From Candidatus Latescibacterota bacterium (GTDB lineage: Bacteria; Latescibacterota; CBDEFO01), in NCBI GenBank assembly GCA_965237525.1, contig CBDEFO010000003.1, positions 192,001 through 256,000 on the forward strand: a stretch of 64,000 nt of DNA, read 5' to 3'. The notes below the pieces were generated by a model. It saw only the letters and a program-made list of their open reading frames with translations. It ran no database searches and had not been told where the DNA came from. This document shows positions 41,920 through 60,288 of the stretch, piece by piece. How positions within the stretch are numbered: the first letter of the stretch is position 1; the number at the start of each line of letters is the position of its first letter. Both the position numbers and the translations under genes were made by a program.

Positions 41920-42057
41920 AAATATCACGCCCTACAGCGCCTATTTTCTTACTAACACTATATGGAGTGATTGCCAAAACAATCGAGAATAGAGTTAATC
42001 CGAATTCCACTTCCAATCCAGGCCAATAACAGCGGCCACAAAACTCAGGATGGAGCC

Positions 42058-42819
42058 GTGAAGCTTAAGGAAAAAGTCGCAATCGTAACCGCGTCGGGTG
42101 AAGGTATAGGTCGTGCCATTGCAGCCGCTTTTGCCAGAGAAGGAGCATCGGTAGCCGTAATTGATATCGATAGGGAGGCCGCGCAATCAGCAGTTAGTGA
42201 GATAGCGTCATCCGGAGGCCACGCAATAAGCATCTACGCCGATGTGACTAAGAGTGAGGATGTAAACGGGATGGTTCAACAAGTCATAGGGGAATTTGAG
42301 AGAGTCGATATCCTCGTCAATAATGCGGGTGGGAGTGCCAGGGCGGAGGCATCACTATTCATCGACTCGAAAGAAGAGGTCTGGGACAAGATAATAGCCC
42401 TGAACCTCAAGAGTGCCCTACTATGCACCCACGCCGTCCTCAAGGATATGATGAAAAGGAAGAAGGGCAAGATTATCAACTTATCATCAGAAGCCGGCAT
42501 AGAAGGCAGCTGGGGGCTGGTGGACTACGCTGCTACGAAGGCCGCGATAATTGGTTTCACAAGGGCTCTGGCCAGAGAGGTTGGACCCCACGGCATCAAC
42601 GTAAACTGCATCGCCCCGGGAGTTATCGAAACGCCCGCTGTCATGGAAGTTGAGAATCCCCACTACAAATCGCATCGTAAACGCGGCCATGAAAGGAAGA
42701 TCATACGGCGATTAGGAAAGCCGGAAGAAGTCGCAGCCCCCGCAGTCTATCTAGCCTCAGACGAAAGCGACTACGTAATCGGAGAGACGATCAGGGTTGA
42801 TGGTGGAATAGGATATTAG
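42058..42819 (+). CDS. SDR family oxidoreductase (FabG-like)
   Basis: TASGEGIG, NNAG, YAATK, IAPG, VDGG; GTG start after GGAG. Confidence 0.92.
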   Translation: MKLKEKVAIVTASGEGIGRAIAAAFAREGASVAVIDIDREAAQSAVSEIASSGGHAISIYADVTKSEDVNGMVQQVIGEFERVDILVNNAGGSARAEASLFIDSKEEVWDKIIALNLKSALLCTHAVLKDMMKRKKGKIINLSSEAGIEGSWGLVDYAATKAAIIGFTRALAREVGPHGINVNCIAPGVIETPAVMEVENPHYKSHRKRGHERKIIRRLGKPEEVAAPAVYLASDESDYVIGETIRVDGGIGY

Positions 42820-43085
42820 CCCGTGTATAAACTAAGCTTGACGCCGTGTGGCAGTGTTTGATCACATGCTTCTCTTGGCAGTGGGTCAGACAGGATTGTC
42901 ACTGGAAGGTTTCCTCACCATAGCGTTCACCTCCTGCCGCCTAAGATACTACAGAACTAATAATAGGGCAATACTAAGAGGAGTGACTACCTAGCCGCAA
43001 ACTTTCCCCGCGAATCTTATAGTCAATTGAAGATAGGTGCAGTAAAGTCTTCCGTCAAAAATGTATCTGTTCTTGTAGTACATAG

Positions 43086-43114
43086 TTGACACTCTATCAC
43101 GAATTCCTTATATT
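43086..43114 (+). promoter_or_regulatory. Sigma70 promoter
   Basis: TTGACA-N17-TATATT. Confidence 0.7.
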
Positions 43115-43226
43115 ACTTCATATCTGTCTCTCGCAACTCTACTTGAAATAATCGGCAAGGCTGCAGGCGAGGTTCCGTGCCATCCGTGTTACGATCGGTA
43201 AGAACACGACTGCTCAAGGCGAAAGA

Positions 43227-43631
43227 ATGTACAGACGCTTTCTGACTACTCTCGCGATAATATCTTTGATCCTTTACACTGGATGCTCTCAGACAAGGCC
43301 GATAAAGACGGTCGATTCGATTTTACCAGAAGATATAAAAGAGGGTGAGGAAGCCAAGATTATCCTCAAGGATCGGACCACAGCCGAGGGCACGATTATC
43401 TCCTCGAATGAAGATGAGATAACCCTCAAAATTGTGTATCAAGATTACGAAAAAGGCGGGAAAAGAGCAAAGTTCATATCTTACAGATGGGATGAGATCG
43501 CAAGAGTCGAATCCAATTCACAGGAGGAAAAGACCAGAAGCAGCCTTCGCGTGGCGGCGATAATGACCGGTATTGTAATAGGTACCGGTTTTCTGCTTTT
43601 GGGACTCATAACAGATGCCCTGTCCAATTGA
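43227..43631 (+). CDS. Hypothetical lipoprotein with a C-terminal TM segment
   Basis: Lipobox YTGC; hydrophobic tail. Confidence 0.65.
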   Translation: MYRRFLTTLAIISLILYTGCSQTRPIKTVDSILPEDIKEGEEAKIILKDRTTAEGTIISSNEDEITLKIVYQDYEKGGKRAKFISYRWDEIARVESNSQEEKTRSSLRVAAIMTGIVIGTGFLLLGLITDALSN

Positions 43632-43735
43632 TTGAGCTCTTTAAGTAAGAATCTCCAAAAGTGCGACAGCAAATAGTCCTGATGCCTGAAGAATCCTTTG
43701 TGCTGAATTAATACTGAAGAAGGACTACACCAAAC

Positions 43736-44356
43736 ATGAAGGTCAACAAAAAGGGAGTGGCTTTCTTGATTTCGGGGATGTGCAGCCCGTTTATCCTGCT
43801 CTTTCTGACCTCAATCCCTATAGTCTATCTGCATACATCTTCCCTCGGTCCCTTTCTGCTGTTCTTCTTTTTGACTCTTGTCTTTGTAATTATGGTTCCT
43901 CTGGCTTCTATTGTTATGCTGTTCGTAAAGGGGAAGATAACGAGCATACACATTATGGATAAAGGTGAACGCAAGCTCCCCTTTGTAGTGGCGATCTTAA
44001 GCGTGTGCCTCGGTCTGGGGTCTTTTTATCTTTTCGATGCTCCGCTTGAGCTTATCGTTTTGGCTATTACATTTATAGCTAATGGTATTGTTCTGGCGGC
44101 GATCACACCCTTTTGGAAAGTGAGCCTGCACGTAGCCGCGGCGACGTGCTGTTTTACAGCGGTGACCGTGTTCTGCGGATGGAAGATGTCTTTTTCGTTT
44201 CTTGCTCTTCCTCTCATATCGTGGGCGAGGATCTCGAGAGGGAGGCACAATCTTGCGCAGTCGCTGGGAGCAGTTTTGGCCTCACTGGTAGTGACGATTT
44301 TGATGTTCTATATATTCCTGCCCGATTATATACACAGGCTGTTGTCTTTCCAGTAG
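43736..44356 (+). CDS. PAP2-like membrane protein
   Basis: WKVSLH, WARISRGRHN motifs; multiple TM helices. Confidence 0.75.
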   Translation: MKVNKKGVAFLISGMCSPFILLFLTSIPIVYLHTSSLGPFLLFFFLTLVFVIMVPLASIVMLFVKGKITSIHIMDKGERKLPFVVAILSVCLGLGSFYLFDAPLELIVLAITFIANGIVLAAITPFWKVSLHVAAATCCFTAVTVFCGWKMSFSFLALPLISWARISRGRHNLAQSLGAVLASLVVTILMFYIFLPDYIHRLLSFQ

Positions 44357-44390
44357 CAACGAATGATATACGGGGATGATCTGTTTGGAC

Positions 44391-44432
44391 GATCTAAAAT
44401 CGTGGCTGACCCTATTGAACATTAAGGGTGTG
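44391..44432 (+). repeat. attL-like 42-bp direct repeat (orphaned dprA 5' end)
   Basis: 41/42 identical to 57557-57598; encodes DLKSWLTLLNIKGV in frame with TTG 44385. Confidence 0.9.
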
Positions 44433-44539
44433 ATAAGACTAATAAATCTCTATTAAAATGTGTAAATATGGCTCATGCAGTTATGGATCCTGAGCTTTTA
44501 GTTCAAACTATCCATGGGGTAAAAAATAGATAAGAAAGA

Positions 44540-45874
44540 GTGTATAGAATGCCAATTCATAGAGAATCAACCAACATTAGTGGAAAGTTAGTTCCTAATA
44601 TTTTAATGGTAGGCTCAGGTCATTATACCACTGGTTGGGTTAAAGGACAACAAAACAAATCAGATAAGAAGATAGGTGTTATTGCTCCTGTTCTTTTTGA
44701 TCAAAGAAGATTAGGTAATGTAGGAAATTTATCTATGGTTGGAACGAATGGAACAAGATTCCCTGAGATAAGATCACATTTAGAAGAACATGTTGCACAG
44801 GTCTATAGAGACATGGATACTTCTTTTAGATCATTTCCAAATGATGACGTTAAAAGTAATCCTTTGGCATATTTGGAAGCTATGGAAACTTTGCATCCCG
44901 GAGATGCAGTTATAATTACCACACCAGATGATACCCACTTCAAAATCGCAAAAACTGCTATAGAAAAAAGTCTTCACTTTTTGATTACAAAACCTCCAGT
45001 AAAGACACTTAAAGAGCATCTTGAACTGATTAATATTGCAAAACAACATGATGTACTTGGTGCTGTTGATGTTCATAAAAGATATGATACAGTGTATGCT
45101 GATGCAAGGCAACAAATAAGGGGACAATTACAAAAACATGGACGTTTTACTAGCCTACAGGCACATATGACCATTGAAAAAAAACGACTGGATCATGTCC
45201 CTTGGGCTGGAAAGTCGAGCGATGTTAGTTATTATTTGAATTCACATCATATTGACTGGCATGTGTGGACTATGGAAGATATTGCTAGACCCGTTAAGGT
45301 TTATGCTACTGCTGCTCAAGGTATTGCTAATAACCCTCCGCATAATTTGCCGACAGAAGATATGATTATTTTAACTGTTGATTGGGAAAATTTCTCTGAT
45401 CCTAAAAATAATGGGATAGCTGTGTACATAGCAGGATGGGTAGATCCAACAAGTGATGTCTATACAGAACAAGGATTTAAAATCAATGTACCAGGGTACA
45501 AAATAGATGCTGACCAAAGTCGTAGAGGTTACATGACATCAGAAGATGGTCCAGGCATTAAGTCACTAAATCCCTTTTATATGAAGTACACACCCAATGA
45601 AGGAGGGTACTTTGATAGTAGCGGTTACGGGTGTTTATGCATTGCAGCTTTTATTGAAGCTATCGGTCAAATACTAAATAAACAAAAGACTGTAAAAGAT
45701 TATGATAAAACACTTCCCACAATTGCTAGGACAACCCAAATGACCGCAATTTTAGAAGCAGGAAGAGAAAGTTTAGATGCTGGAGGAGTTCCTGTGTCCA
45801 TTAAATATGATAAGAAAGATAAATCACTTCCGGTTGGACTGACTAAGTACAAATTATTAAGAACAAGAAAGTGA
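44540..45874 (+). CDS. Gfo/Idh/MocA oxidoreductase, D-galacturonate reductase (fungal GaaA)-like
   Basis: LMVGSGHYTTG, SDKKIGV, TPDDTH, HKRYD, WAGKSSDVSYYLNSHHID resemble A. niger GaaA as recalled; AT-rich. Confidence 0.75.
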   Translation: MYRMPIHRESTNISGKLVPNILMVGSGHYTTGWVKGQQNKSDKKIGVIAPVLFDQRRLGNVGNLSMVGTNGTRFPEIRSHLEEHVAQVYRDMDTSFRSFPNDDVKSNPLAYLEAMETLHPGDAVIITTPDDTHFKIAKTAIEKSLHFLITKPPVKTLKEHLELINIAKQHDVLGAVDVHKRYDTVYADARQQIRGQLQKHGRFTSLQAHMTIEKKRLDHVPWAGKSSDVSYYLNSHHIDWHVWTMEDIARPVKVYATAAQGIANNPPHNLPTEDMIILTVDWENFSDPKNNGIAVYIAGWVDPTSDVYTEQGFKINVPGYKIDADQSRRGYMTSEDGPGIKSLNPFYMKYTPNEGGYFDSSGYGCLCIAAFIEAIGQILNKQKTVKDYDKTLPTIARTTQMTAILEAGRESLDAGGVPVSIKYDKKDKSLPVGLTKYKLLRTRK

Positions 45875-46203
45875 CGAAAGAAAAATGTGTTTTTTGCAAG
45901 ACCTTGATTCATTATAGACAAGAAGAAAATTCGATTGGAGCAAGAAAGAAAATTTAAGTATAAACTTGCGTTCTTTGCCTCAGTCGTACATTTCCCATAC
46001 TAACTGATATAGTTGAAAATGAGGCTGACCCCCCTACTTAGCCGAAGGTTTATTCTAAAATTGGTTAAGGTTGCAGGAAACTTGTGCTCTCTCATTTTCT
46101 GATAACTTTCTCCTTCTCTTAATCCTAAGTCGCCTTACAAGATCTCTGTTAAGTGAACTATTAGATACGCACGCTGGCTTAATGTACAATAAGATTTGTA
46201 TCA

Positions 46204-46696
46204 TTGAGTAATGGAGATGGGACATTTGCAGACAAGGTGTACTATACCGTTGGGCTGGATGCCACATCAGCATTCAGTGCAGATTTAGATGGAGATAATG
46301 ACTTGGCTGTGGCTAATGTTGAGAGCGGTAGTGTCTCAGTGTTTTTGAATCGCTCTGATATTCCCACTGCTGGCGTCACTGCTGTAATCAAGTATGAAGA
46401 ACCATTATCAGATATTCCCGAAGCTTATGCCATCTCGCAGAACTATCGAAATCCCTGTAACCCTGGGACGGTGCTCTATTATGATCTTCCTGTTTGAACC
46501 CGCGTTGAGCTATCTGGCTTCAACATGATGGGGCAGGAGGTGGCGACGTTGGTGGCTGGAGAGATCCGCGGGCAGGCTTTCAGTGGTCTGGGATGCTAAG
46601 GAGAGCGACGGACAGAGCCTCGCCAGCGGAGTCTATCTCTACCAGATCGAGGTAGATAGATTTCTGAAGACAAGGGAGCTGATATTAATGAGATAG
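46204..46696 (+). pseudogene. 5'-truncated, disrupted FG-GAP + FlgD-type gene (paralog of 32459-33298)
   Basis: DLDGDNDLAVAN, SQNYRNPCNP; stop at 46495 followed by frameshifted C-terminal remnants. Confidence 0.8.
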
Positions 46697-46722
46697 ACCT
46701 TCTTATTTTAAGTGATGCGACA

Positions 46723-46758
46723 GAGCCGGAGCTCAGTTTATAAGGGCTTCGGTTTTTT
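46723..46758 (+). terminator. Intrinsic terminator
   Basis: AGCCGGAGCT...GGCTTCGGTT stem followed by a T tract. Confidence 0.6.
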
Positions 46759-46789
46759 GTCTAACTGAATCTGGCCGATGAAGTTATTG

Positions 46790-46833
46790 TTGACATCTGT
46801 TTCGTTTTTCCTTATCTTGTGATCCATATCACA
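46790..46833 (+). promoter_or_regulatory. Sigma70 promoter with a CRP/FNR-type box, copy 2
   Basis: TTGACA-N17-TATCTT; TGTGA-TCCATA-TCACA at 46818-46833. Confidence 0.7.
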
Positions 46834-47023
46834 GTACGGACGCTAAGGTTTGATTATCTTAACTGAGATAATTAAATGTAGGGGCGGGGTTATCCCGCCC
46901 CTATAGGATTGTAGTGGAACGTATATCCAAGAAGCCATCTTCAGCCCACGGATGAGGAGGTGAAACAAATTTTCCGGGCTTAAATAGAGTCGAAGTTTTG
47001 TCAATCTAAAGGAGGTTTTAACA

Positions 47024-48052
47024 ATGGCTGCCAAGACATTCTGCTTAGTCATTTTGGTCATAGCCATCTGCGCGCTTGCAACGTCTGCCACGGCGAAGAT
47101 TTGGCGGGTCGATAACAATCTTGGTAACGCGGCGGACTGGAGGACCATACAAGCGGCTCACGACGGCTCAGCAAGCGGCGATACGCTCTATGTTTCGGGT
47201 GCTGCAATTAGCTATGGTAGTTTGTTTGCTTCTAAAGAAACTCTTTATCTTCGGACCCGGTTATCTCCTGGGTGAAAATCCCAAAACCCAGGCAAATCTA
47301 TCCTCTGCCAAAACTGACAATATTAGATTCGACTCGGGTTCGGATAGTTCACTCGTCACGGGTTTAGATGTAAAGTTTACATTGGAAGTTAATGTTGGTG
47401 TGAGCAACGTTACTATCAAGAGAAATAGAATAGTCCACGGCAGTAATCCGGTTGTCTTGATAGACGACAATGCCACCAATATATTCGTTACACAGAATTA
47501 TATCCGTCAAACTGGTCTTTCTTCTAGCAACCACGCAATCCGAGTAGATCCTGGTGTCAGCTCTACTTTCATCAATAATAATTTCATAGAGGCTGTCACC
47601 ACAGGGCAAAACGCAATCAACGCAAGTAGCACCTCAGGTATCACCGTTGAGCAAATGTTATCCGCGGAGACGTGATAGTATATAATACGGGTTTTAACAA
47701 TAACGTATGGAGAGAGGGGACTTTTTCCGGTACTAATAATGCCATATTCAATAACATCACAAGTACGGCGCCTGCGGAGTTTGATACAACCAAGGGCAAT
47801 CAAACCAACGTAGATATGGCGACTGTTTTTGTGGGCACCGGCAGCACCGATGGCCAATGGCAATTGACAACAGGTTGTCCTGCAATCGGTGCGGGCTTAG
47901 GTGGTAATGATATTGGAATGTTCGGTGGACTTGATCCTTATATCCTTTCCGGGATGCCTGCCATTCCTGCAATTTACTTTTTCAGCGCCCCTGTACCCGG
48001 TTCAAACACCAGCGGCCTTCCGGCTCAAGTGAAAGTTAAATCGCATAACTGA
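47024..48052 (+). pseudogene. Secreted beta-helix-like protein split by two frameshifts (possibly sequencing indels)
   Basis: SD AAGGAGG, signal peptide, TIQAAHD..SGDTLYV; the frames join at A-runs near 47234 (+1) and 47654 (-1). Confidence 0.75.
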
Positions 48053-48449
48053 TAGTAAACAGCACACGTAAGTAGACAGCATATTTGTAGGGTCGAGCTT
48101 TTCTCCACCCAATGGTCGGGTAACCCAGCCTTTACACGATAGGTGATACGTAGAAGAGAAGGTGCCCTGCCTACGAGATTGCTTCCCCCCGATAGATTCA
48201 ATCGGGGGTCGCTCGCAATGACACGGTGTACTTTTGCCTTCGATCATTGAGAGGGGTGGAACCCCGACTCCGTCAGGAGTTACGACCCCGAGGAGACGCG
48301 AAGCGGAACCAGAACCAAGCTCAAAGACTTTTTTCTAATGAAAAGTAATCAGTAGGGGCGAGCTCATGTGTTCGCCCAGTAGGTAGGGGACACATCCTTC
48401 TCCCTATTTGCTAACAGAACAGGCCCCTCCCCATAACAGGAGTGTAGAG

Positions 48450-51400
48450 ATGAGTAGGGTGCAGTATGCACTCAGCGCGGTAATTCTTGCCATCTTGCTC
48501 GGTCCACAGGCGCCTTACGCACAGAACATTGTGCGGGTGGAGTACTACATCGACTCAGACCCCGGTTTTGGCAATGCAACACAAATGAGCATTACGCCTG
48601 CCCCCGAACTGGATCTGAACTTCAATGCAGATCTTTCAGGCATAAGCGCAGGTTTGCATTCTTTGTATGTTCGAGCCAAGGACGATAGTAGCAATTGGAG
48701 TCTGTCCTACGCAAAGCCCTTCATAACAGTTGCTTTGACTGTTGCGTCTGATATTACGCAGGTAGAATATTACGTAGACACAGATCCAGGTTTTGGAGCG
48801 GGTGTGGATGTGCCGATTACCCCGGGAAGTGACGTTACGCAGGATTTCACAGTTGACTTGAGCGGTCAAAGTAAAGGACTTCACGTTTTGTATGTTCGAG
48901 CCAGGGATCAAGGTGGCAATTGGAGTTTGTCCTATGCTAAGCCCTTCATAACAGTTGCTTTGACTGTTGCGTCTGACATTGCGCAGGTAGAATATTACAT
49001 AGACACAGATCCAGGTTTTGGAGCGGGTGTGGATGTGCCGATTACACCCGGAAGTGACGTTACGCAGGATTTCACAGTTGACTTGAGCAGTCAAAGTGCA
49101 GGCTTGCACGTTCTATATATTCGAGCCAAGGATCAAGGTGGCAATTGGAGTTTGTCCTATGCCAAGCCCTTCATAACACTTGCTTTGACTGTTGCGGCTG
49201 ATATTGCGCAGGTAGAATATTACATAGACACAGACCCAGGATATGGAGCGGGCGTGGATGTGCTGATTACGCCGGGAAGTGACGTTACGCAGGATTTCAC
49301 AGTTGACTTGACTGGCCAAAGCGAAGGACTTCACGTTTTGTATGTTCGAGCCAGGGATCAAGGTGGCAATTGGAGTTTGTCCTATGCTAAGCCCTTCATA
49401 ACAGTTGCTTTGACTGTTGCGCCTGATGTTGAGCAGGTAGAATATTACATAGACACAGATCCAGGCTATGGAGCGGGTGTGGATGTGCCGATTACACCGG
49501 GAAGTGACATTACGCAAAGTTTCGCAGTTGACTTGAGCAGTCAAAGTGCAGGCTTGCACGTTCTATATATTCGAGCCAGGGATCAAGGTGGCAGTTGAAG
49601 TTTGTCGTACGCCAAGCCCTTCATAACGGTCTCTCTCGCAGTTACTTCAAACATCACGAAGGCCGAATATTACATAGACACAGACCCTGGCCTTGGAAAT
49701 GGTGTAGAAATTCATATTACTACACTGGGGACTGACATTACACAGGATTTCACAGTTGACTTGAGCAGTCAGAGCGGAGGACTTCACGTTTTGTATGTTC
49801 GAGCGCAGGATGAAAGCGGCAATTGGAGTTTGTCCCTAGCCAAGAGCTTTACTGTCATTGTGGATGTTTCGCCTGAAGTTGTACAGATGGAATATTATAT
49901 CGACACAGACCCTGGCTTTGGAGCAGGTGTGGACGTGCCTATTTCTACACCTGGGAATGATGTCACGCGGGGTTTCATAGTAGACTTAAGCAGTCAATCC
50001 GAAGGACTTCATGTTCTATATGTTCGAGCCAAGGACCAAGGTGGTAACTGGAGCTTATCTCATGCCAAGGCTTTTTCGAGCGTAGTGTTGGCAGTTGCTT
50101 CAGATATTGTTAAGATGGAGTATTACATAGACACAGACCCTGGTTTTGGAGCAGGTGTGAATGTTCCTATTGCTACAGCGGGTGTTGACATTACACAAAG
50201 TCTCACAGTAGACTTGAGCGGTCAAGGAGATGGTCTGCACGTTCTATATATTCGAGCTAAGGATCAAAATGGCAGTTGGAGCTTATCTTATGCTAAGCCT
50301 TTTACGAAGGTTACTCTGGCAGTCGCTTCAGATATTGTTAAGATGGAGTATTACATAGACACAGACCCTGGGTTTGGAGCAGGTGTGAATGTGCCTATCG
50401 CTACACCGGGTGTTGACATTACACAAAGTCTCACAGTTGACTTGAGCGGTCAAGGAGATGGTCTGCACGTTCTATATATTCGAGCTAAGGATCAAAATGG
50501 CAGTTGGAGCTTATCTTATGCTAAGCCTTTTACGAAGGTTACTCTGGCAGTTGCTTCAGATATTGTTAAGATGGAGTATTACATAGACACAGACCCTGGG
50601 TTTGGAGCAGCTGTGAATGTTCCCATTGCTACAGCGGGTGTTGACATTACACAAAGTCTCACAGTAGACTTGAGCGGTCAAGGAGATGGTCCGCACGTTC
50701 TATATATTCGAGCTAAGGATCAAAATGGCAGTTGGAGCTTATCTTATGCTAAGCCTTTTACAAAGGTGACTTTAGCTGTGGCGTCTGATATTGTTAAGAT
50801 GGAGTATTACATAGACACAGACCCTGGCTTTGGAGCAGGGGCGAATGTTCCTATTGCTACAGCGGGTGTTGACGTTGAGCAAAGTTTTGTGGTTGACCTG
50901 AGCGTTCAGAGCGATGGTCTGCACGTTCTATATATTCGGGCCAAGGATCAAAATGGGAATTGGAGTTTATCTTATGCTAAGCCTTTTACGAAGGTGACTT
51001 TAGCTGTGGCGTCTGATATTGTTAAGATGGAGTATTACATAGACACAGACCCTGGCTTTGGAGCAGGGGCGAATGTGCCTATTGCTACACCGGGTGTTGA
51101 CATTACACAAAGTCTCACAGTAGACTTGAGCGGTCAAGGAGATGGTCTGCACGTTCTATATATTCGAGCTAAGGATCAAAATGGGAATTGGAGCTTATCT
51201 CATGCCAAGCCTTTTACAAAGGTGCGTCGTGACATTGCCCCAAATATCACTGCTGTTGAATACTATTTCATTAAGGACGGGGCAAAGACCCAGGTCAGTA
51301 CTTACACGAATTTCACATTCGCAACAGATGTTGGGGCCAATTTCGTAGCGGATATATCAGCCTTGGATAATAATAGTGCCTACAATTGGCATATCTACGG

Positions 51401-52934
51401 CATAGCTGAGAACGGCAGAAGGAGTTTGGAGTACGTTCACTCATTTACGGTCGGAAACGCCCCTCCGGTTGCCGTGGACGATACCGTAACCACGCCTGAG
51501 GACACGTCGATTGTAATCGCTGTGCTTTCCAACGATTTTGACGTGGCCGGAGACACGCTCAAAGTCCACTCGGTCGACACGACCGGCACTGAAGGAAGGG
51601 TCGTCGTCGATCCCGGCGATACTACGGTAGCCTATACGCCCAAGGCCGACTTCAACGGTATAGACACGTTCGAGTACGTGCTAACAGATGGCGCACTGAC
51701 TGACACAGCCACGGTCACGGTGACAGTGGAACCGGTGAACGACGCGCCGGGGGACTTTCTCCGGCTCTTGCCCGCAGACAGTAGCCTCGTCCAGCTCGAT
51801 TCTGTCCTTTTCCTCTGGACAGCAGCGTCCGATGCGGACAGGGATACGGTGGAATATACGATAAATATCTCCTTCGCTCAGATCGATACGAGCTTTGTCG
51901 TGGAAGACACGATGTTAGCGGTCTATTTCCGAACGTTTGAGCTGCCCAAGGCCCAGCTTCCTGTGACGTGGTTGGTAGTCGCCTCAGATGGCATCGTGAC
52001 CTCCGGTCCGACCAATGGAAACGGGAACTTTACTTTGAACACGCCACTCCTGTTCGGCGATGTATCGGGCAACGGGGAGATCACCTCCTTCGATGCGGTG
52101 CTGATCTTGCAGCATACGGTGGGGCTGATCACACTGACGGATCCCTTTGCCCGCGTTGCAGATGTCTCCGACAACGGCAGGATCAGTGCCTTTGACGCCG
52201 CTTTGGTGCTGCGCTTTGTCGTGTCGGCTATCCCGTGCCTCCCGGCTGACCCAGACTGTGGAGTATTAGCTAAGGGGAAAGCCGTTGCAGGCACACTTGC
52301 CTGGTCAGAGACTCGGTCAGGAGATGTGCCCGGACACGTCGATCTGCCGATCGTGTGGGACAGTGAGATGGGAGATGTGATCTCCGCACAGTTCACCGTG
52401 CAGATCGACACGAGTTTTGCAAAGGTAGTAGATGTGGTTTCGAACCTTCCGGAGGACTGGCATATGGTGCATAGTTTCTCCCACGGTGAGCTAAAAGTGG
52501 CGATGGCTGGTCTCACACGTATATCTGACGCACGCTTAGCTACGCTCCGGTTGCTGATGAGCGAACGGGAGGCAGAGGTGACGATTCGCGGTGTAGGGTC
52601 AGTGAACGAGGAGTTGGAGCAGGAGTTGGGAGCTGCAAGGGTCCGGTATGTCCCGAAGGAGTACGCGCTGGAGCAAAACTATCCCAATCCATTCAATCCC
52701 CAGACTGTGATCCGTTACGACCTTCCTGTTGGAAGTCACGTTACCTTATCTGTCTTTAACATAGTGGGACAGAAAGTTGCCACACTGGTGAATGAGGAGA
52801 TGGATGGAGGCAGTTACTCTATCGTCTGGGACGGTAAAGATCATAGTGGAAGGAGCCTTGGCAGCGGAGTCTATCTGTATCGGTTAGAGACAGATGGGTT
52901 TGTTCAGATAAAAAAGCTGGTGTTGATGAGATAG
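48450..52934 (+). CDS. Large secreted repeat protein (12 EYYIDTDPG repeats + Ig/cadherin-like + dockerin + cohesin-like + FlgD-type CTD) with an in-frame TGA at 49596-49598
   Basis: The two ORFs are in the same frame; 225/228-bp tandem units; TGA replaces the TGG found in every other repeat. Confidence 0.85.
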
Positions 52935-53112
52935 GATCCGTTCAAAAGAGATAATATCTTGTAGCTAAGGTAGACTATCCTCGGAGATAGGAGGCGATGC
53001 AAAAATATCTTGATTTTCGGATCAGTTTGGGGTATATTGTTACCTAAATGAGATCGTCACCTGATAGATAATCGTGTTTTTTTAATTTGCATCATAGTCA
53101 AGGAGATAGATT

Positions 53113-54939
53113 ATGTACGGATGGACAGGAAAGATTCTGCGCGTTGACCTTACGCGCGGCACGTGGCAGGTTGAGGATGTGCCGAAAGCGTGGATGCGCG
53201 ATTTTGTCGGCGGACGCGGGCTGGCGGCCAAGTACCTATACGAGGAGATGGACCCTATGGTGGACGCTTTAAGTCCCGAGAATAAATTGATTCTGGCTAC
53301 GGGTCCCCTTACTGGCACGCCCGTCTCCTGCGGTGCGCGCTATATGGTCGTGACCAAGGGGCCTTTGACAGGGGCTATTACCACATCCAACTCCGGCGGA
53401 CACTGGGGACCGGAGCTCAAGTTCGCAGGTTACGATATGGTCATCGTAGAGGGGAAGGCACAAAAGCCGTCCTACATCTTCATCTACGACGACCGCGTGG
53501 AAATACGCGATGCCAAGAACGTATGGGGCAAGACGGTCTCTGAGACTGAAGACCTTATCCGTGCGGAATTGGGCGTTCCGGGCACGCGTGTGACGGGCAT
53601 AGGCCCTGCAGGAGAAAATCTCGTTCGGTTCGCCTGCATTATCAACGACAAGCACCGTGCGGCGGGGCGCTCCGGTGTGGGCGCCGCTATGGGTTCCAAG
53701 AACCTGAAGGCTATCGCCGTGCGGGGCACAAAAGCTGTCAGGGTCGCGCGCCCTGAGGATTTTATGCGCTCTATGTGGGACTTTGCCCAAAAGCTTGCCA
53801 AAAGCCAGGAGCGAGCAGGCCTGACAGAATTAGGCACACCTCCGACTATCGATCTTGTCAACGCCTTCGGCGGCCTTCCGACGCGCAACTTTCAGGAGGG
53901 ACAGTTCGAGCAGGCGGACAACCTCAATGGCAACAGCATCAAAGACCAGCGGCTTGTAACAAATAAAGCCTGTTTTGCGTGCAATATCGCCTGCGGGCGA
54001 GTGACGCAGTTGGGGGACGGATCGGGCAAGTTCCTGGTCAACACTCACCCGCGCAACTGGGACGTAGCCGGCGAAGGCCCCGAATACGAGACGGTCTGGG
54101 CGCTCGGCGCAGATACGGGTGTGGGTGACCTGGACGCGGTGATCAAGGCTAACTTCCTTTGCAATGATCTGGGTATGGACCCCATCTCGATGGGTGCGAC
54201 ACTTGCCGCTGCGATGGAACTCTACGAGAAGGGCTTCATCAATGACTCGATGGTTGAAATTCCCCTGGAGTTCGGAAGCGGCGACGCCCTGGTGCGTATG
54301 ACAGAGGCGACGGGCTACCGAGAAGGCTTCGGAGACGAACTTGCCCAGGGTAGCAAACTCATGACGGAAAAATTCGAGCATCCCGAATTCTTTATGGGCG
54401 TCAAGGGCCAGGAATTTCCGGCTTATGACCCGCGGGGTTTCCAGGGCATGGGAGTCGCCTATGCCACCTGCAACCGCGGCGCATGCCACATTCGAGCCTG
54501 GACGCCCGCTGTAGAGGCGTTAGGGGATATGGACCCGCATACGACCGAGGGCAAATCCAAATGGGTAGTAGACGAGCAAGATAGGACGACGGTGCACGAT
54601 GCGACGGGTATCTGCCTGTTCATCACAGCGGGCTCTTCGCTTGAGGACCTCCTGCCCTGCCTTATAGGAGCTACAGGTATCGATTACACCTGGGACGACT
54701 TCGTCAAAGCCGGTGAGCGCATCTGGAACATCGAGCGCCTTTGGAACCTCAAAGCGGGGCTGACTTCCAAGGACGATACCCTGCCCAAGCGTCTGATGAC
54801 CGAGGCGCACAAATCGGGACCGTCGGAGGGCGTCACCGTCAAGTTAGACCAGATGTTGCCCGAGTACTACGAAGAGCGAGGCTGGACGCCCGACGGAGAG
54901 CCGAGGGAGGAGAAACTTGTGGAGCTGGGACTGATGTAA
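53113..54939 (+). CDS. aor: Aldehyde:ferredoxin oxidoreductase (tungsten AOR family)
   Basis: GKILRVDL, RAAGRSGVGAAMGSKNLKAI, CFACNIAC, GPEYE, RGACH, DATGIC. Confidence 0.93.
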   Translation: MYGWTGKILRVDLTRGTWQVEDVPKAWMRDFVGGRGLAAKYLYEEMDPMVDALSPENKLILATGPLTGTPVSCGARYMVVTKGPLTGAITTSNSGGHWGPELKFAGYDMVIVEGKAQKPSYIFIYDDRVEIRDAKNVWGKTVSETEDLIRAELGVPGTRVTGIGPAGENLVRFACIINDKHRAAGRSGVGAAMGSKNLKAIAVRGTKAVRVARPEDFMRSMWDFAQKLAKSQERAGLTELGTPPTIDLVNAFGGLPTRNFQEGQFEQADNLNGNSIKDQRLVTNKACFACNIACGRVTQLGDGSGKFLVNTHPRNWDVAGEGPEYETVWALGADTGVGDLDAVIKANFLCNDLGMDPISMGATLAAAMELYEKGFINDSMVEIPLEFGSGDALVRMTEATGYREGFGDELAQGSKLMTEKFEHPEFFMGVKGQEFPAYDPRGFQGMGVAYATCNRGACHIRAWTPAVEALGDMDPHTTEGKSKWVVDEQDRTTVHDATGICLFITAGSSLEDLLPCLIGATGIDYTWDDFVKAGERIWNIERLWNLKAGLTSKDDTLPKRLMTEAHKSGPSEGVTVKLDQMLPEYYEERGWTPDGEPREEKLVELGLM

Positions 54940-54984
54940 GAACGAACAGAAAAGTTGCGGCGTTCTGCCTCAGTATACTGTAGC

Positions 54985-56286
54985 GGTTATTTATCAAATG
55001 AAATCGGTGCACTTCTCTTTCGATCTTTGATTGATCTTGAATGATAGGTTTTCGACAATCTTTGGTTTCTGTTCTTTTTCAAAATGGATGTATAATTGTT
55101 CTTCTTTTAGGTTCCATTCAGCCAGGACAAAGTAGTTGGTGTAAGAGGAGGGAAGAGATACTTTCTCATTTAGGACATCGATAAAGGCTTTATCTGTCTG
55201 TTCTGTGTCCTGTTTGACTTGTCTGATAAAATAGGTCTTGGGAATGAAATCTTTCTCGTTTGACTTCTCTTGCTTAGGTGGACGGTAGCCGGTGTATCTC
55301 TGTGATGAAAGATTAAACCATTCTAACTTCTGATCAACTTCTTGTAAGCTTTTGAACTGAATTCTGTTCCAGAACTTCCTTGAAAATACAGAATTGTTGC
55401 CTTCTATAGATGCTTGAGAAAAGGGCCTTCTGGGAACGGCAAATATCGGAATCACTTGATTTTTCAAGAGAAACTGCATTGCTTTGCTGACATTCCTTTT
55501 ACCTGAAACACTGCCAATAGTCGCCGAGCAATTGTCCACCTTAACGAAATCTGGTTTTTCAAACCTGTCAAAGAAAGACTGACACTTCTCGATAAAGTTA
55601 GTTGCTGTTTGACCGTCAACCCGCCGAAAATACCTTAACTTAGGCTCTTTCTTAAAGGAAAATCCAACGAAGTTGACCGGCTCAGTTCTGCCGGTAAGAT
55701 ACTTTTTACCAATAAAGTCTGATTCTAGGACTCTGCCTCCTGAAAGATAGTAAATGGTATACTCTGGATAACAAAGATAACGAGATGCACCCTTGTTTTT
55801 ACCTTTCTTCCTTCTCTGGGAAAGTCCTAAATCTGAAAGCATTCTGCCGATAGTCGGCAACGACGGAGGAGGGGTGCTAGAATATCGATTCCTCCATTCT
55901 TGTTCAATAACAGTGGCTCCTGAATAGAACTGATAAGGATCGTCCTCTAAGCTATGGTAAATCTCTTTGATTCTCTGTTCGTCAACTTTAGCCAATTTTC
56001 GCCTTTTTCCTTTTGGCCAACCCCGATTATCCATGGCAAAATCCTGATCCAGAGATTTAGTCCAAGCCGTAACGAAATCATTGGAAACTCTCGCTTGTTT
56101 GATAACTTCTCGCTTTGACATTTCTTTCTTAAAATACATCTCGTTGACTTCTTGTCTTAATACGGCCAATCTCTCTTTGTCCATAGGACTCCGTAGATTA
56201 AAGTTAAGACAATCAACTCAACTTAATCTACTAATACTCTAAACAAAGATCAAATTAGGTGCACCGATTTCATTTGATATTCAACC
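54985..56286 (-). mobile_element. Insertion sequence, 1302 bp, copy 2
   Basis: Same TIRs, length and protein as 243-1544; flanks TGTAGC / GGTAGC. Confidence 0.95.
54994..56184 (-). CDS. Transposase identical to 252-1442
   Basis: Identical 396-aa translation. Confidence 0.88.
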   Translation of the reverse strand: MDKERLAVLRQEVNEMYFKKEMSKREVIKQARVSNDFVTAWTKSLDQDFAMDNRGWPKGKRRKLAKVDEQRIKEIYHSLEDDPYQFYSGATVIEQEWRNRYSSTPPPSLPTIGRMLSDLGLSQRRKKGKNKGASRYLCYPEYTIYYLSGGRVLESDFIGKKYLTGRTEPVNFVGFSFKKEPKLRYFRRVDGQTATNFIEKCQSFFDRFEKPDFVKVDNCSATIGSVSGKRNVSKAMQFLLKNQVIPIFAVPRRPFSQASIEGNNSVFSRKFWNRIQFKSLQEVDQKLEWFNLSSQRYTGYRPPKQEKSNEKDFIPKTYFIRQVKQDTEQTDKAFIDVLNEKVSLPSSYTNYFVLAEWNLKEEQLYIHFEKEQKPKIVENLSFKINQRSKEKCTDFI

Positions 56287-56461
56287 GGTAGCCACTGGGC
56301 GACTGTCAAAGAGATGGTCGCCCTTTTTCCTATGCTCAACCATTATCCTCGCACTACAGAGTCGTTGCAGTTTGATACATACTTGCCAAGGAGGCTTGAA
56401 ATGCGAGGGACAATTTTACACATTTCCCTGGCGCTGTTGTCCCCGATTGAATCTATCAGGG

Positions 56462-56775
56462 ATCAACCTCCTGCTCCTTCGGATCCTTGCGACCACGCCG
56501 AGACTTCAGGCTCTCCTGGCCTCCTTCTAAGAAACTATCACGCCAAGCATACGCCTGCTACTGGCTGATTCCATTCTTCCGACATACTTCCGATACATCC
56601 ACTCCTTTCAAAAGAGTCAGCACCACCTCTGCCTTTCGGGTCACCGTCCAGCGCTTACTATCTTTCACTTCGGGGCTTGACACTTTGACCTCCTTTCCCC
56701 GATAGTATCACTCGGGGACAAGCCTCAAACCCCAATTTGCAAAATATTTGTCGCTCTGTCAAGGGGAGCGGTATG
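56462..56775 (-). pseudogene. IS3-family OrfA remnant with a probable left end
   Basis: SD AGGAGG, GTG 56683: MSSPEVKDSKRWTVTRKAEVVLTLLKGVDVSEVCRKNGISQ*QAYAWRDSFLEGGQESLK; TIR-like TACCGCTCCCCTTGACAG near 56757-56774. Confidence 0.7.
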
Positions 56776-57339
56776 CCGCAGCGTCTTCTACTGTAAGAAG
56801 ATACGATGCCGATGGCAGCAAAAAGACGACTTTCGGCAGAGTTTCGGCACCTTCGCCAAAAACAAGAGGATCAAAATGAAGTCCCACTTCGCGATCGAAG
56901 TAAAGAGCGTCCTCATTCATGCCCCTAACTTTTGCTTCGGTACATCCATGAGCAAATTGGAAGTATTGTTTAACTTCCTCAGTTCCTGGCATGTATCAGA
57001 AAGTTTTCCTGGGCTGATGTGAAAAACTTACTACAAAAGTTATGATCCAGCGGAGGAAGACACTCTTTGTTAATGTTGAAAGACCGGTTAAGTTCTCTGG
57101 GTGGGACATATGGAAAGGATTTAATCTTGTTAGAAACAGAAGACTTTTCCTTGTTATCTGCTCAAGGATTTAGTATATTAGTACGTATCACCTATGAGCA
57201 AGGTAGAAATATCTGGAGGAGGATTTACGTGAAAAAGTTTGTGGTATTCCCTCTTAGTGGACATGGAACCCTGCCGGCCTCATTTACTATTCATGAAGAG
57301 CAGTTAATTCTACTTGCTGAAGAAGAAAAGAAAACAGTC

Positions 57340-57504
57340 GAATCCGTTGATCTTCCTACAGTTCAGAAACTTATGGGACACAAGACCATCGAGATGACAT
57401 TACACTATGCCCATCTTACCCCAGATCATCTAAAAGATTCTATCAATAAACTGAATCTTGGTGGACACTATTTGGACACCGAGCAAAAACTGGAGGGCAG
57501 GTAG
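57340..57504 (+). pseudogene. Tyrosine integrase C-terminal remnant
   Basis: VDLPTVQKLMGHKTIEMTLHYAHL (box II His and catalytic Tyr); upstream catalytic residues missing; GGACAC direct repeats at 57463-57479. Confidence 0.8.
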
Positions 57505-57550
57505 AAACAGGATACTATTGCGTATGCTGTTGATAAACCATAACATACAT

Positions 57551-58648
57551 ATGAATGATCTAAAATCGTGGCTGACCCTATTTAACATTAAGGGTGTGGG
57601 ACCGAACCGCTTTCGGGCTCTTGTAGGGAAGTTCGGATCTCCCGCGGCGGCTCTTGAGGCGAGCACTTCTGATCTGATGTCCGTGCCTACTATAGACGAA
57701 AAGATATCAGCCGCTATAAAGGGATACGAAAACGAGGTGGAGATAGAAAGACAGATGGCGGCCATAGAAAAAAAGGGAGTTCGTCCTATCACGTGTTTCG
57801 ATACAGATTATCCCGAGTTGCTGAAGAACATATACGATCCTCCGCCTATGCTGTTTGTGAAGGGAACTATAAAGGAGGAGGATTCCTCGGCAGTGGCTGT
57901 GGTGGGTACGCGCAACCCTAAGCGCTACGGGAAGATGATGGCTGAAAAGCTGTCCAGGGACCTAGCTGATGGGGGAATTACCGTAGTAAGCGGGCTTGCA
58001 CGGGGAATAGACTCACTAGCGCATAAGGGCGCGCTGTCAAGAGGAGGACGGACAATAGGCGTGTTGGGCTGCGGCGTTGACGTGGTCTATCCCCCTGAAC
58101 ATAAGAAACTCTTTGAGGCCGTTATCGCTAATGGTGCCCTCATCTCCGAGTTTCCGATGGGGACAAGACCGGAAGCACCGAACTTCCCCCGCAGAAACAG
58201 AGTCATAAGCGGCATGAGTTTAGGTGTTGTGATAGTTCAGGCGCCGGCCAAAAGTGGCGCTCTTTTGACGGCTCGATACGCTCTGGATCAAAACAGGGAG
58301 GTATTTTCCGTACCAGGGAACGTGGACGATATGCAGAGCCGCGGGACAAATGGCCTCATCAAACAGGGGGCAAAGTTAGTAGAAGACGTAGAGGATATAC
58401 TTGTGGAGATAAAGAGCTCCCTAAGGATACCGATAGAGCCGAAGCCGCCTGTGCCTGATGACGTTGAGGAATTGGAACCTAATGAAAGGTCGGTGCTCCA
58501 GGCTCTGACGGACGAGCCAAAGCATATAGACGCCATATGCAATCAGACGAGCTTAGAACCGTCTATTACCTTGGCTGCACTCTTATCATTAGAACTTTCG
58601 GGACTGGTAAGACAGCTTTCGGGGAAGATGTTTTTAAGACAAGTATAG
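57551..58648 (+). CDS. dprA: DNA-processing protein DprA
   Basis: YPELLKNIYDPP, VVGTR, VSGLARGID, FPRRNRVISG, SGALLTA; C-terminal wHTH. Confidence 0.96.
   Translation: MNDLKSWLTLFNIKGVGPNRFRALVGKFGSPAAALEASTSDLMSVPTIDEKISAAIKGYENEVEIERQMAAIEKKGVRPITCFDTDYPELLKNIYDPPPMLFVKGTIKEEDSSAVAVVGTRNPKRYGKMMAEKLSRDLADGGITVVSGLARGIDSLAHKGALSRGGRTIGVLGCGVDVVYPPEHKKLFEAVIANGALISEFPMGTRPEAPNFPRRNRVISGMSLGVVIVQAPAKSGALLTARYALDQNREVFSVPGNVDDMQSRGTNGLIKQGAKLVEDVEDILVEIKSSLRIPIEPKPPVPDDVEELEPNERSVLQALTDEPKHIDAICNQTSLEPSITLAALLSLELSGLVRQLSGKMFLRQV
57557..57598 (+). repeat. attR-like 42-bp direct repeat inside dprA
   Basis: 41/42 identical to 44391-44432. Confidence 0.9.
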
Positions 58649-58665
58649 AAAGGAGAGCATAGGGG

Positions 58666-58776
58666 ATGGCTAAGACGCCGAGGAAATTGAGGATAAAAAA
58701 GAGAGCAAAGCAAAACGCCGCCGACAGGAGGGCTACAAGAAAGGCAAGCAGAAAAAAGGTCAAAAGACAGTTGTGA
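58666..58776 (+). CDS. Small highly basic protein, 36 aa
   Basis: MAKTPRKLRIKKRAKQNAADRRATRKASRKKVKRQL; purine-rich SD-like sequence upstream; 17 bp after dprA. Confidence 0.55.
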   Translation: MAKTPRKLRIKKRAKQNAADRRATRKASRKKVKRQL

Positions 58777-58823
58777 TTCCAAAGCCCTGCCGAAGTTGGC
58801 AACGCTCTCCGTTCTCTTCGGGC

Positions 58824-59357
58824 TTATTTCCACTTTATAGTGCAGCCAACAGCCTCCGTCTCAGTTACCGCAACTTCTGCTCCTGAAAGCACAGCGTCGA
58901 TGGCGTTTCTGAGATCCGGGGATTTGACGTTGTCGGGGTCCTCCCAGTTGTCGTCAATTCTGCCGTGATAGCGCAGTGTGCGTTGGGAATCGAACAGGAA
59001 CATCTCAGGAGTCCTCTCAGCTCCGTAGGCGGAGGCGGCACTCTGAGCTTCGTCTCTCAAATATGGAAAGTTGAAGCCCCTTTCCTCTGCCCGTATAACC
59101 ATATTGTCGAAGCCGTCTTCCGGGTGGTTCATATGCTCGTTGGGGTTGATAGCTACCAGAGCCACACCCTTGTCCTGGTAGTCTTTTTGTATGGCAATAA
59201 TTCTCTCTTCGTATGCCTGCGCATAGGGACAGTGGTTGCAAGTGAATGCCACGATTAACACTTCTTCATCCTTGAAATCGTCCATACTGTGATTCACCCC
59301 GTCCACGCCGGGAAGATCAAAAGGAGGTGCTTTGTCGCCTATCTGCAGATCTGCCAT
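58824..59357 (-). CDS. Thioredoxin family (AhpC/TSA-like) protein
   Basis: CNHCPY, FPYLRD, RTPE, YHGRIDD, GCTIKW. Confidence 0.92.
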   Translation of the reverse strand: MADLQIGDKAPPFDLPGVDGVNHSMDDFKDEEVLIVAFTCNHCPYAQAYEERIIAIQKDYQDKGVALVAINPNEHMNHPEDGFDNMVIRAEERGFNFPYLRDEAQSAASAYGAERTPEMFLFDSQRTLRYHGRIDDNWEDPDNVKSPDLRNAIDAVLSGAEVAVTETEAVGCTIKWK

Positions 59358-59439
59358 GCTATTTCCCTTCCTTTATATGATTAAGCTCCACTCGTGGCAT
59401 CACTTAGGAAGAATCAGTATTAATGCTTCCGTTGCGATC

Positions 59440-60288
59440 TTATCTTAGCAGAACCATCTTCCTTGTAGCGGTAAAGTCCCCCGCTTTCAAGATGTAGAAA
59501 TAGACTCCGCTCGCCACGCTCCTACCCTCTTCATCCAGACCGTTCCAGACTAAAGAATAGCTTCCGGCGTCCGTCTGGCCCTCCATAAGCTTCCTTACAG
59601 CCTGTCCGTTGATGTTGTAAATGACAAGCTTTGCCCTTGAGTCTTCGGGCACATCGTAAGCTATGGTGGTCTCAGGGTTGAAGGGATTTGGATAGTTCTG
59701 GGAGAGAGAATAGGAGGTCGGGATGTCCTTTGTGTCCTTGAAGCCTGAGAAGGTCCGTCTGACGACGATCTGAACTGGATCCAGGGATTCTATCAGGTCA
59801 ATGTCGTCTTTAGCGATCCCTTTGAGCTCAATTCTGGAGAGGGTGAAAGTGACTTCAGATCCTACGGGGAGTTCACCTGAAGGTATAAATGAGATTACCC
59901 CCAAGAGTCCGTCTCCAGAGGGGGTTGTACTCTGATCGGGCTTCACAATGGCGTTGGCTACGATGACCCTGTTCTCCCTTTGCGTCTTCAAAAAGATGGG
60001 TGTTGCACCTCCCCTGGAGGATAGTATGTTGCGCTTCCCTTCACAAGATGCCAGCGTGGAAGGCTCGTTCCAGGAGAAAAGCTCGCTGTCATATAGGAGG
60101 TCTATGCGGTAAGCCGTCAGGTCGGTTACGCCTTCTGCATAGACAGCCACATCTACAGTCTGCTGATTGGACTGATACAGGTCGAGTCTCAGTGAGGCTG
60201 CACTGTTGGTTCCTGCCATTGTCTCTGATAGAGGCATCAGCGTGACAGTCAGAAGGATAGCTCCAATGACGATGATTCTGGATATCAT
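59440..60288 (-). CDS. Secreted cohesin-like + FlgD-type CTD protein
   Basis: Signal peptide; SGDGLLGVISF; QNYPNPFNP...TRKMVLLR; SD GGAGGAGG. Confidence 0.8.
   Translation of the reverse strand: MISRIIVIGAILLTVTLMPLSETMAGTNSAASLRLDLYQSNQQTVDVAVYAEGVTDLTAYRIDLLYDSELFSWNEPSTLASCEGKRNILSSRGGATPIFLKTQRENRVIVANAIVKPDQSTTPSGDGLLGVISFIPSGELPVGSEVTFTLSRIELKGIAKDDIDLIESLDPVQIVVRRTFSGFKDTKDIPTSYSLSQNYPNPFNPETTIAYDVPEDSRAKLVIYNINGQAVRKLMEGQTDAGSYSLVWNGLDEEGRSVASGVYFYILKAGDFTATRKMVLLR

What the first reader, a model, noticed from the sequence alone, without database searches (positions are those of the whole stretch)
44376..57598. ~13.2-kb island integrated in the 5' end of the transformation gene dprA, swapping its start and upstream control region
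Seen: GATCTAAAATCGTGGCTGACCCTATT(G/T)AACATTAAGGGTGTG at 44391-44432 and 57557-57598 (41/42). The left copy follows GGGGA-N8-TTG GAC and reads M-D-DLKSWLTLLNIKGV, then stops after 7 more codons. The right copy follows ATG AAT and reads M-N-DLKSWLTLFNIKGVGP into full DprA, so the element supplies a replacement start at the same codon, but with no clear SD (CCATAACATACAT-ATG). A tyrosine-integrase remnant and GGACAC repeats lie just inside the right repeat. Established: tyrosine integrases create att duplications, and mobile elements often target competence genes. Inference: integration detaches dprA from its native upstream context (promoter 43086, lipoprotein, PAP2-like gene) and could act as an excision-controlled transformation switch, now frozen because the integrase has decayed.
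Basis: partly seen in the sequence, partly recalled or inferred. Interest (0 to 1): 0.9.

Follow-up and report, generated by a model that had tools for sequence, protein, structure and literature searches.

The report
Fixed island replacing dprA's gene start
Two near-identical copies of the start of the DNA-uptake gene dprA flank a 13-kb block that is likely an old integrated island which gave the gene a replacement start; only a stub of its integrase is left and dprA has stayed conserved, so it is probably a stuck, gene-restoring insertion rather than a transformation switch.

Summary
The repeat is real: 41/42 bp, 13,166 bp apart. The congeneric genome G001 has the same island, and contigs from other studies cross both junctions, so it is not a misassembly.

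A 52-codon tyrosine-integrase tail with a P2-type arm repeat precedes the right copy. In 10 of 14 related tRNA-linked integrase loci, the tRNA loop starts 109-111 bp after this arm. Here that position is dprA codons 13-15, three bases before the repeat ends. The island most likely descends from a tRNA-targeting clade retargeted to dprA, and replaces the 5' end as dusA islands and SXT do.

The switch reading is not supported. The integrase was already a stub before the two genomes split, yet dprA stayed under purifying selection (16 synonymous, 8 non-synonymous changes), and comEC and comM are intact. The new start has a much weaker ribosome-binding site, so lower expression is possible but untested. 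No empty site or excision junction was found, and none of 88 other phylum genomes has an integrase or the PAP2-like gene beside dprA.

I found no paper naming dprA as such a target. The scan earlier noted dprA-splitting serine-recombinase islands in another genome, a different, disruptive kind.

The parts
43086..43114 (+). sigma70-like promoter match (11 of 12) upstream of the left-flank genes; its role for dprA is inferred
43227..43631 (+). 134-aa ORF with a signal peptide and lipobox-like N-terminus (motif recalled); no family hit; host flank
   Evidence: omega 0.24 vs G001
43736..44356 (+). 206-aa membrane protein, weakly PAP2-like; host flank
44372..44376 (+). strong Shine-Dalgarno of the original dprA start
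   Evidence: -11.0 kcal/mol (G001 -12.6)
44385..44432 (+). attL: original first 16 codons of dprA (TTG start); the frame stops at 44456; predicted 7-bp crossover at 44423-44429
44540..45874 (+). cargo: Gfo/Idh/MocA oxidoreductase in a 36% GC segment (genome 49%)
   Evidence: omega 0.24
46204..46697 (+). cargo: broken FG-GAP/FlgD-type gene remnant with many paralogues in the genome
47024..48052 (+). cargo: secreted protein gene, frameshifted here, one 343-aa ORF in G001
48408..52934 (+). cargo: repeat-rich Ig-like surface protein with dockerin-like and FlgD-like domains; split by a stop here, one 2026-aa ORF in G001
53113..54939 (+). cargo: aldehyde ferredoxin oxidoreductase catalytic subunit; intact here, 1-bp insertion near the 5' end in G001
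54981..56290 (-). IS with 32-bp inverted ends and a transposase nearest IS481 (below cut-off); 49 near-full-length copies in G000; absent at this place in G001, so a later insertion
56442..56776 (.). ~310-bp dispersed repeat (about 20 diverged copies in G000) holding a promoter-like match at 56677-56706 (+)
57151..57179 (+). weak promoter-like match (9 of 12) facing dprA, hexamers kept in G001; candidate replacement promoter, untested
57229..57504 (+). 91-codon ORF with a strong SD, open in both genomes; its last ~52 codons (57346-57504) are the tyrosine-integrase C-terminal stub
57463..57479 (+). arm-type direct repeat GGACAC-N5-GGACAC, shared with tRNA-linked integrases of this genome and phylum
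   Evidence: P2 arm consensus tgTGGaCa in PMC3448106
57523..57535 (+). IHF-like site (consensus recalled, partial match) at the same offset from the arm (+44 to +56) as in tRNA-linked relatives
57551..57598 (+). attR: island-supplied dprA codons 1-13 with an ATG and no clear SD; predicted 7-bp crossover at 57589-57595 (codons 13-15)
57551..58648 (+). full-length dprA (365 aa), under purifying selection

Best explanation
The 13.2-kb block between the two dprA starts is likely an old genomic island that a tyrosine integrase inserted at dprA codons 13-15, supplying its own copy of the first codons so that the reading frame is whole, and it is now probably fixed because only a stub of the integrase remains. 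Shown: the duplication, the intact frame, the integrase stub with its arm repeat, the same state in a second species, and purifying selection on dprA. Inferred: the crossover position (from arm-to-core spacing); descent from a tRNA-targeting integrase clade whose attP captured the host's dprA start, probably by insertion at a secondary site and imprecise excision; and transcription of dprA from promoters inside the island. The captured piece begins at the start codon and leaves the host SD behind, so DprA is probably made at a changed, perhaps lower, level.
For: G001 has both repeats and the same integrase stub; by parsimony the two copies were identical over 42 bp at integration, including synonymous sites. 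The stub's closest relatives are decayed integrases of the same genome, one beside tRNA-Thr (65-70% aa identity over short stretches) with the identical arm; arm to tRNA end and arm to dprA ATG are both 71 bp. Of 33 arm hits listed, 14 have a whole tRNA downstream, and in 10 of these a 7-nt loop starts at +109 to +111. In the window +110 to +116 is 57589-57595, and the identity block ends 3 bp later, as in the tRNA-Thr fragment at G000 C8:1363348. Three relatives carry the tRNA in the same direction as the integrase with the T loop at +109/+110, the layout of a 5'-end replacement. dprA vs G001: 16 synonymous and 8 non-synonymous changes, omega 0.16, p 1.1e-5, while the stub has 0 and 4. comEC and comM frames are open in both genomes. 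The closest DprAs (55-59% identity) start M-E-D-L behind a purine-rich SD, one with TTG like the left copy. The first 1.8 kb inside attL is 36% GC against 49% for the genome.
Against: No empty site, attP circle or intact dprA-adjacent integrase was found, so target specificity rests on one event shared by two kin genomes. No arm repeat is recognisable inside attL. 4 of 14 tRNA-linked relatives have their anticodon loop at +120 to +123. The loop used was chosen by orientation, not shown, and one of the 10 is the G001 orthologue of a G000 site. Most cargo looks host-like (50% GC, many paralogues) and no mobility gene beyond the stub was seen. The 4 promoter-like matches in 56600-57700 barely exceed shuffles (mean 1.8, sd 1.4).
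Confidence: 0.75

Rival explanations
1. Excision-controlled transformation switch: integration silences dprA and excision restores it; now frozen in the off state.
For: The strong SD is replaced by a weak one (-11.0 to -2.1 kcal/mol). Mobile elements often interrupt competence genes (PMC12378983 section 13).
Against: A gene frozen off should drift, but dprA has omega 0.16 since the split, after the integrase was already truncated in both genomes. The element restores the frame, whereas regulated-gene-integrity elements lack a replacement (passage in PMC10111431). -2.1 lies between the 10% (-1.2) and 25% (-3.3) weakest of 234 unambiguous starts in this genome, and one relative's dprA has -2.5. 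comEC and comM are intact.
Confidence: 0.06
2. Not site-specific integration: host rearrangement in this IS-rich genome duplicated the dprA start and happened to place dprA behind an unrelated integrase remnant.
For: The two genomes are heavily shuffled just left of 42876. G000 has 49 near-full copies of one IS and 19 short two-copy repeats. dprA has left the obgE context common in the phylum. The cargo is host-like.
Against: It would need chance to put the repeat's end at the clade's arm-to-core distance and to keep an IHF-like site at the same offset. No IS end lies at either repeat, and the island's IS is absent from G001.
Confidence: 0.12
3. The repeat is a misassembly.
For: The assembly is metagenome-derived and repeat-rich.
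Against: The single-contig G001 has both copies with its own private substitutions. Leaving out the likely source run X1, contigs cross attL in 2 of 3 runs and attR in 3 of 3 runs, each from a different study.
Confidence: 0.01

Closest known systems
dusA-associated integrase (DAI) islands (PMC4482086; PMC8409611)
   Same: A tyrosine-integrase island in the 5' end of a protein gene; the island supplies a new 5' end and the original 5' end marks the far boundary. IMEVchUSA3 supplies a new promoter with lower expression (passages).
   Different: The target is dprA, not dus. The repeat is 42-48 bp and nearly identical to the host, against a 21-bp imperfect repeat with an altered N-terminus. The integrase is a stub of a tRNA-targeting clade, and no excision was shown.
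SXT/R391 ICEs at the 5' end of prfC (as summarised in PMC8409611)
   Same: [quoted passage not shown]
   Different: No conjugation genes were seen, it is 13 kb and immobile, and the target differs.
tRNA-targeting tyrosine integrases with P2-type arm sites (PMC3448106; phylum loci)
   Same: Arm repeat, IHF-like site offset, arm-to-core distance, and integrase tail sequence.
   Different: The replaced fragment is the start of a protein gene, not part of a tRNA. No phage structural genes were seen.
Competence-gene-interrupting elements: comK, comM, comYC, comFA, ssbB (PMC12378983 section 13)
   Same: Insertion in a transformation gene.
   Different: Those in protein-coding genes are described as interruptions that inactivate; this one restores the frame. 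dprA is not among the targets in that section.
Disruptive dprA insertions seen here in IMG/VR (G168; L170) and the scan's note e1-4218447
   Same: dprA is the target gene.
   Different: G168 splits dprA at about codon 259 with an 11-bp core and no restoration. L170 truncates it near codon 234 beside a large serine recombinase. Sites and recombinases differ from this island.

Membership tests
Tyrosine-integrase genomic island (attL/attR) | direct repeat at both ends, derived from the target gene | tested here: met
   41/42 bp in G000, 40/42 in G001
Tyrosine-integrase genomic island (attL/attR) | tyrosine integrase gene next to one att site | tested here: inconclusive
   only a 52-codon C-terminal stub, PF00589 143-170, below cut-off
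Tyrosine-integrase genomic island (attL/attR) | arm-type sites on both sides of the core | tested here: inconclusive
   arm repeat at the clade's distance inside attR; none recognised inside attL
Tyrosine-integrase genomic island (attL/attR) | empty site in relatives | tested here: inconclusive
   the only close genome has the island; scans and runs gave no empty site
5'-end-replacing islands (dusA DAI / SXT type) | island supplies the 5' coding sequence and restores the frame | tested here: met
   full 365-aa DprA from ATG 57551 in both genomes; omega 0.16
5'-end-replacing islands (dusA DAI / SXT type) | island supplies a working promoter | not testable with these tools
   only consensus matches; one 204-bp RNA-library contig inside dprA, which could be DNA
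dusA-associated integrase family (DAI) | target is dusA/dusB/dusC with the DAI att repeat | tested here: not met
   target is dprA; the nearest integrases lie beside tRNA genes
SXT/R391 ICE | prfC target and conjugation genes | tested here: not met
   no such genes among the island ORFs scanned
Regulated gene integrity / active lysogeny (comK type) | target gene broken while integrated, no replacement sequence | tested here: not met
   frame restored and conserved
Regulated gene integrity / active lysogeny (comK type) | functional integrase and detectable excision | tested here: not met
   stub in both genomes; its closest paralogues in G000 carry stops; no attB/attP joint among 15 listed joints, 44 more not shown

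The most novel reading that the evidence does not exclude
A tRNA-targeting tyrosine-integrase lineage was retargeted to the start of dprA and acts as a dimmer. It keeps the protein intact but swaps a strong ribosome-binding site and the host promoter for weak island signals, turning transformation down without losing DprA. Active members of this dprA-specific family exist in unsampled relatives.
Probability: 0.2. Interest if true: 0.65.

Novelty: new variant of a known kind. Interest (0 to 1): 0.4.

Why it matters
It adds dprA to the protein genes whose 5' end an island can replace; I found no such report in my searches. It also shows a competence gene being restored rather than broken, unlike the usual host-parasite conflict examples. 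The conserved arm-to-core spacing gives a clear picture of how a tRNA-targeting integrase can move to a protein gene. Its weight is limited: it is one decayed event in one genus, and the effect on expression is unmeasured.

Tried and rejected
Empty site, none found. A degenerate pattern for the repeat in metagenome contigs gave 0 hits. The DprA query gave 11 loci in genome contigs and 5 in metagenome contigs, none close except the congeneric record, with no 5' duplication. Runs X16, X17, X20 and X12 do not cover the att site; they hold only short pieces, so they say nothing on habitat or expression.

Integrase beside dprA elsewhere, none found. 0 of 88 other phylum dprA loci had one, with about 1.5 kb upstream in most and less in five. 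0 of 30 integrase loci from the phylum search held dprA. 80 viral loci with the arm motif held no dprA. The intact relative integrase had no match in viral contigs. Whether an intact copy of this integrase lies in the large protein collections remains untested.

PAP2-like gene next to dprA in relatives: not seen. Rfam on 42000-59500: 0 matches. Folding of both start regions was no better than shuffles. A TACCAC...GGACA stretch near 44627 was considered as the missing left arm and rejected: it lies inside the oxidoreductase gene and at the wrong distance. Upstream in-frame starts for dprA (57458, 57524) have weak SDs, and 57524 is not kept in G001.

Literature searches for dprA as an integration target found none. 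In PMC2440964 dprA is only a cargo label. Mageeney et al. 2020, its supplements and the TIGER/Islander database could not be seen and may list dprA targets.
Full report
Observation. The 42-bp repeat is at 44391-44432 and 57557-57598 with one mismatch, 13,166 bp apart, far beyond chance. The left copy has a strong SD, a TTG start, 16 dprA codons and then 7 codons to a stop. The right copy begins a full 365-aa DprA. The window is G000:C3:192001-256000.

Not an artefact. G001, the only other genome of the genus and family among those held, is one contig and has the same island: 13,496 bp, both repeats, the same integrase stub. Each genome has private substitutions in the repeats, so by parsimony the copies were identical over 42 bp at integration, and the G/T mismatch is later decay of the dead left copy. 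Leaving out run X1, the likely source, contigs cross attL in 2 of 3 runs and attR in 3 of 3, each from a different study. No excision joint is among the 15 joints listed; 44 more were not shown, and contigs drop rare variants.

The recombination site. Only the last ~52 codons of the integrase survive (PF00589 143-170), fused to an unrelated start. They contain GGACAC-N5-GGACAC, which resembles the P2-type arm consensus tgTGGaCa (PMC3448106, passages). The nearest relatives are decayed integrases of the same genome, one of them beside tRNA-Thr with the identical arm. The best phylum matches to an intact relative mostly lie beside tRNA genes. Of 33 arm hits listed, 14 have a whole tRNA downstream: in 10 a 7-nt loop starts at +109 to +111 from the arm, and in 4 at +120 to +123. 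The loop was chosen by orientation, and one of the 10 is orthologous to a G000 site. In the window +110 to +116 is 57589-57595, dprA codons 13-15, and the identity block ends 3 bp later, just as the tRNA-Thr fragment at C8:1363348 ends 3 bp after its loop. An IHF-like site (consensus recalled) has the same offset. Three relatives show the layout of a 5' replacement of a tRNA. I infer that a tRNA-targeting element captured the host's dprA start into its attP and inserted there. The near-identity at synonymous sites points to capture within this lineage. No arm was recognised inside attL.

Does dprA work? Between G000 and G001 dprA shows 16 synonymous and 8 non-synonymous changes (omega 0.16, p 1.1e-5), similar to other intact genes nearby (0.12-0.35). 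The stub shows 0 and 4, and the membrane gene 3 and 9. Both genomes share the truncated integrase, so this selection acted on the integrated, immobile state. comEC and comM are intact in both. The SD drops from -11.0 to -2.1 kcal/mol (-12.6 to -2.1 in G001). The genome median is -6.2 over 234 unambiguous starts, with the weakest quarter above -3.3, so the new start is weak but not exceptional. Promoter-like matches face dprA at 56677 and 57151 and are kept in G001, but barely exceed shuffles. One RNA-library run holds a 204-bp contig inside dprA with one difference, which could be DNA. Expression level is therefore untested. Selection could also reflect DprA roles other than transformation.

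Native context. No empty site was found. In 88 other phylum genomes neither the lipoprotein nor the membrane gene nor an integrase lies by dprA. obgE is directly upstream in 56 of the 83 loci where the DprA query matched, and G000's obgE lies on another contig. The DNA left of 42876 differs between G000 and G001. The left flank is thus lineage-specific, and its operon link to dprA is unproven. The left copy's SD and TTG still match the starts of the closest DprAs.

Cargo. It holds a 36% GC oxidoreductase segment, host-like surface-protein genes (two broken here and intact in G001), an aldehyde ferredoxin oxidoreductase (intact here, frameshifted in G001), a later IS481-like element with 49 near-full copies, and a dispersed repeat. 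No conjugation or phage genes were seen.

Comparison. It works like dusA-associated islands, which replace the 5' end of dusA (PMC4482086, passages) and in one case supply a weaker promoter, and like SXT at prfC (PMC8409611, passages). It is a member of neither family. A replacement sequence in attP is the rule, and regulated gene integrity is the exception that lacks it (PMC10111431, passages). A 2025 review lists competence genes hit by mobile elements and dprA is not among them (PMC12378983, section 13 read whole). In pneumococci one attB keeps its locus intact and one prophage raises DprA (10.1101/2024.08.13.607808, passages). Searches found no paper with dprA as an integration target. I could not see Mageeney et al. 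2020 or its supplements, and saw only the search listing for the TIGER/Islander resource (PMC12424338); either may list such targets. dprA is hit elsewhere by unrelated, disruptive elements: IMG/VR provirus G168 splits it at about codon 259 with an 11-bp core, L170 truncates it beside a large serine recombinase, and the scan's unchecked note e1-4218447 describes serine-recombinase islands splitting dprA.

Verdict. A real, old, gene-restoring island at a target I found no record of; the switch reading is unlikely. New variant of a known kind, interest 0.4.

Noticed in passing
G168 (L167, L172, L176; IMGVR_UViG_2509276051_000004): A 37-kb provirus record splits dprA at about codon 259 with an 11-bp duplicated core and no restoration; a weakly XerD-like 438-aa recombinase lies beside it.
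   Followed up: partly
L170:1-2271: dprA is truncated near codon 234 next to a large serine recombinase at the end of a provirus record; the other end was not found in the record.
   Followed up: partly
G000:C7:728532-729760 (L297): A second, shorter DprA homologue with an upstream PRTase-like ORF; PADLOC hits ShosA/PsyrA and PsyrT/ShosT. Probably a defence module; G001 has the DprA homologue too.
   Followed up: partly
G000:C8:1363348-1363628: An attP-like scar: arm repeat, half a tRNA-Thr, then a second arm repeat about 130 bp on, with no intact integrase; a similar one is in G001 (L195).
   Followed up: no
G000:C3:22449-64384: A 41.9-kb island in tRNA-Ala with a ~50-bp end repeat and the same arm motif near one end.
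   Followed up: no
G000:C7:415308-415785: A related decayed integrase with a degenerate arm followed by a non-tRNA hairpin-like site; no partner repeat was found in the genome.
   Followed up: partly
window 42876: Synteny with G001 ends here; in G001 a ~165-bp repeat with short internal repeats abuts this point, and it has three copies elsewhere in G000. It may be another insertion junction; Rfam has no match.
   Followed up: partly
window 57229-57504: The integrase stub is fused in frame to an unrelated N-terminus with a strong SD, and this 91-codon frame is open in both genomes, ending 46 bp before dprA.
   Followed up: partly
phylum dprA loci (L003-L030, L237-L296): obgE directly precedes dprA in 56 of 83 loci where DprA matched.
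   Followed up: yes
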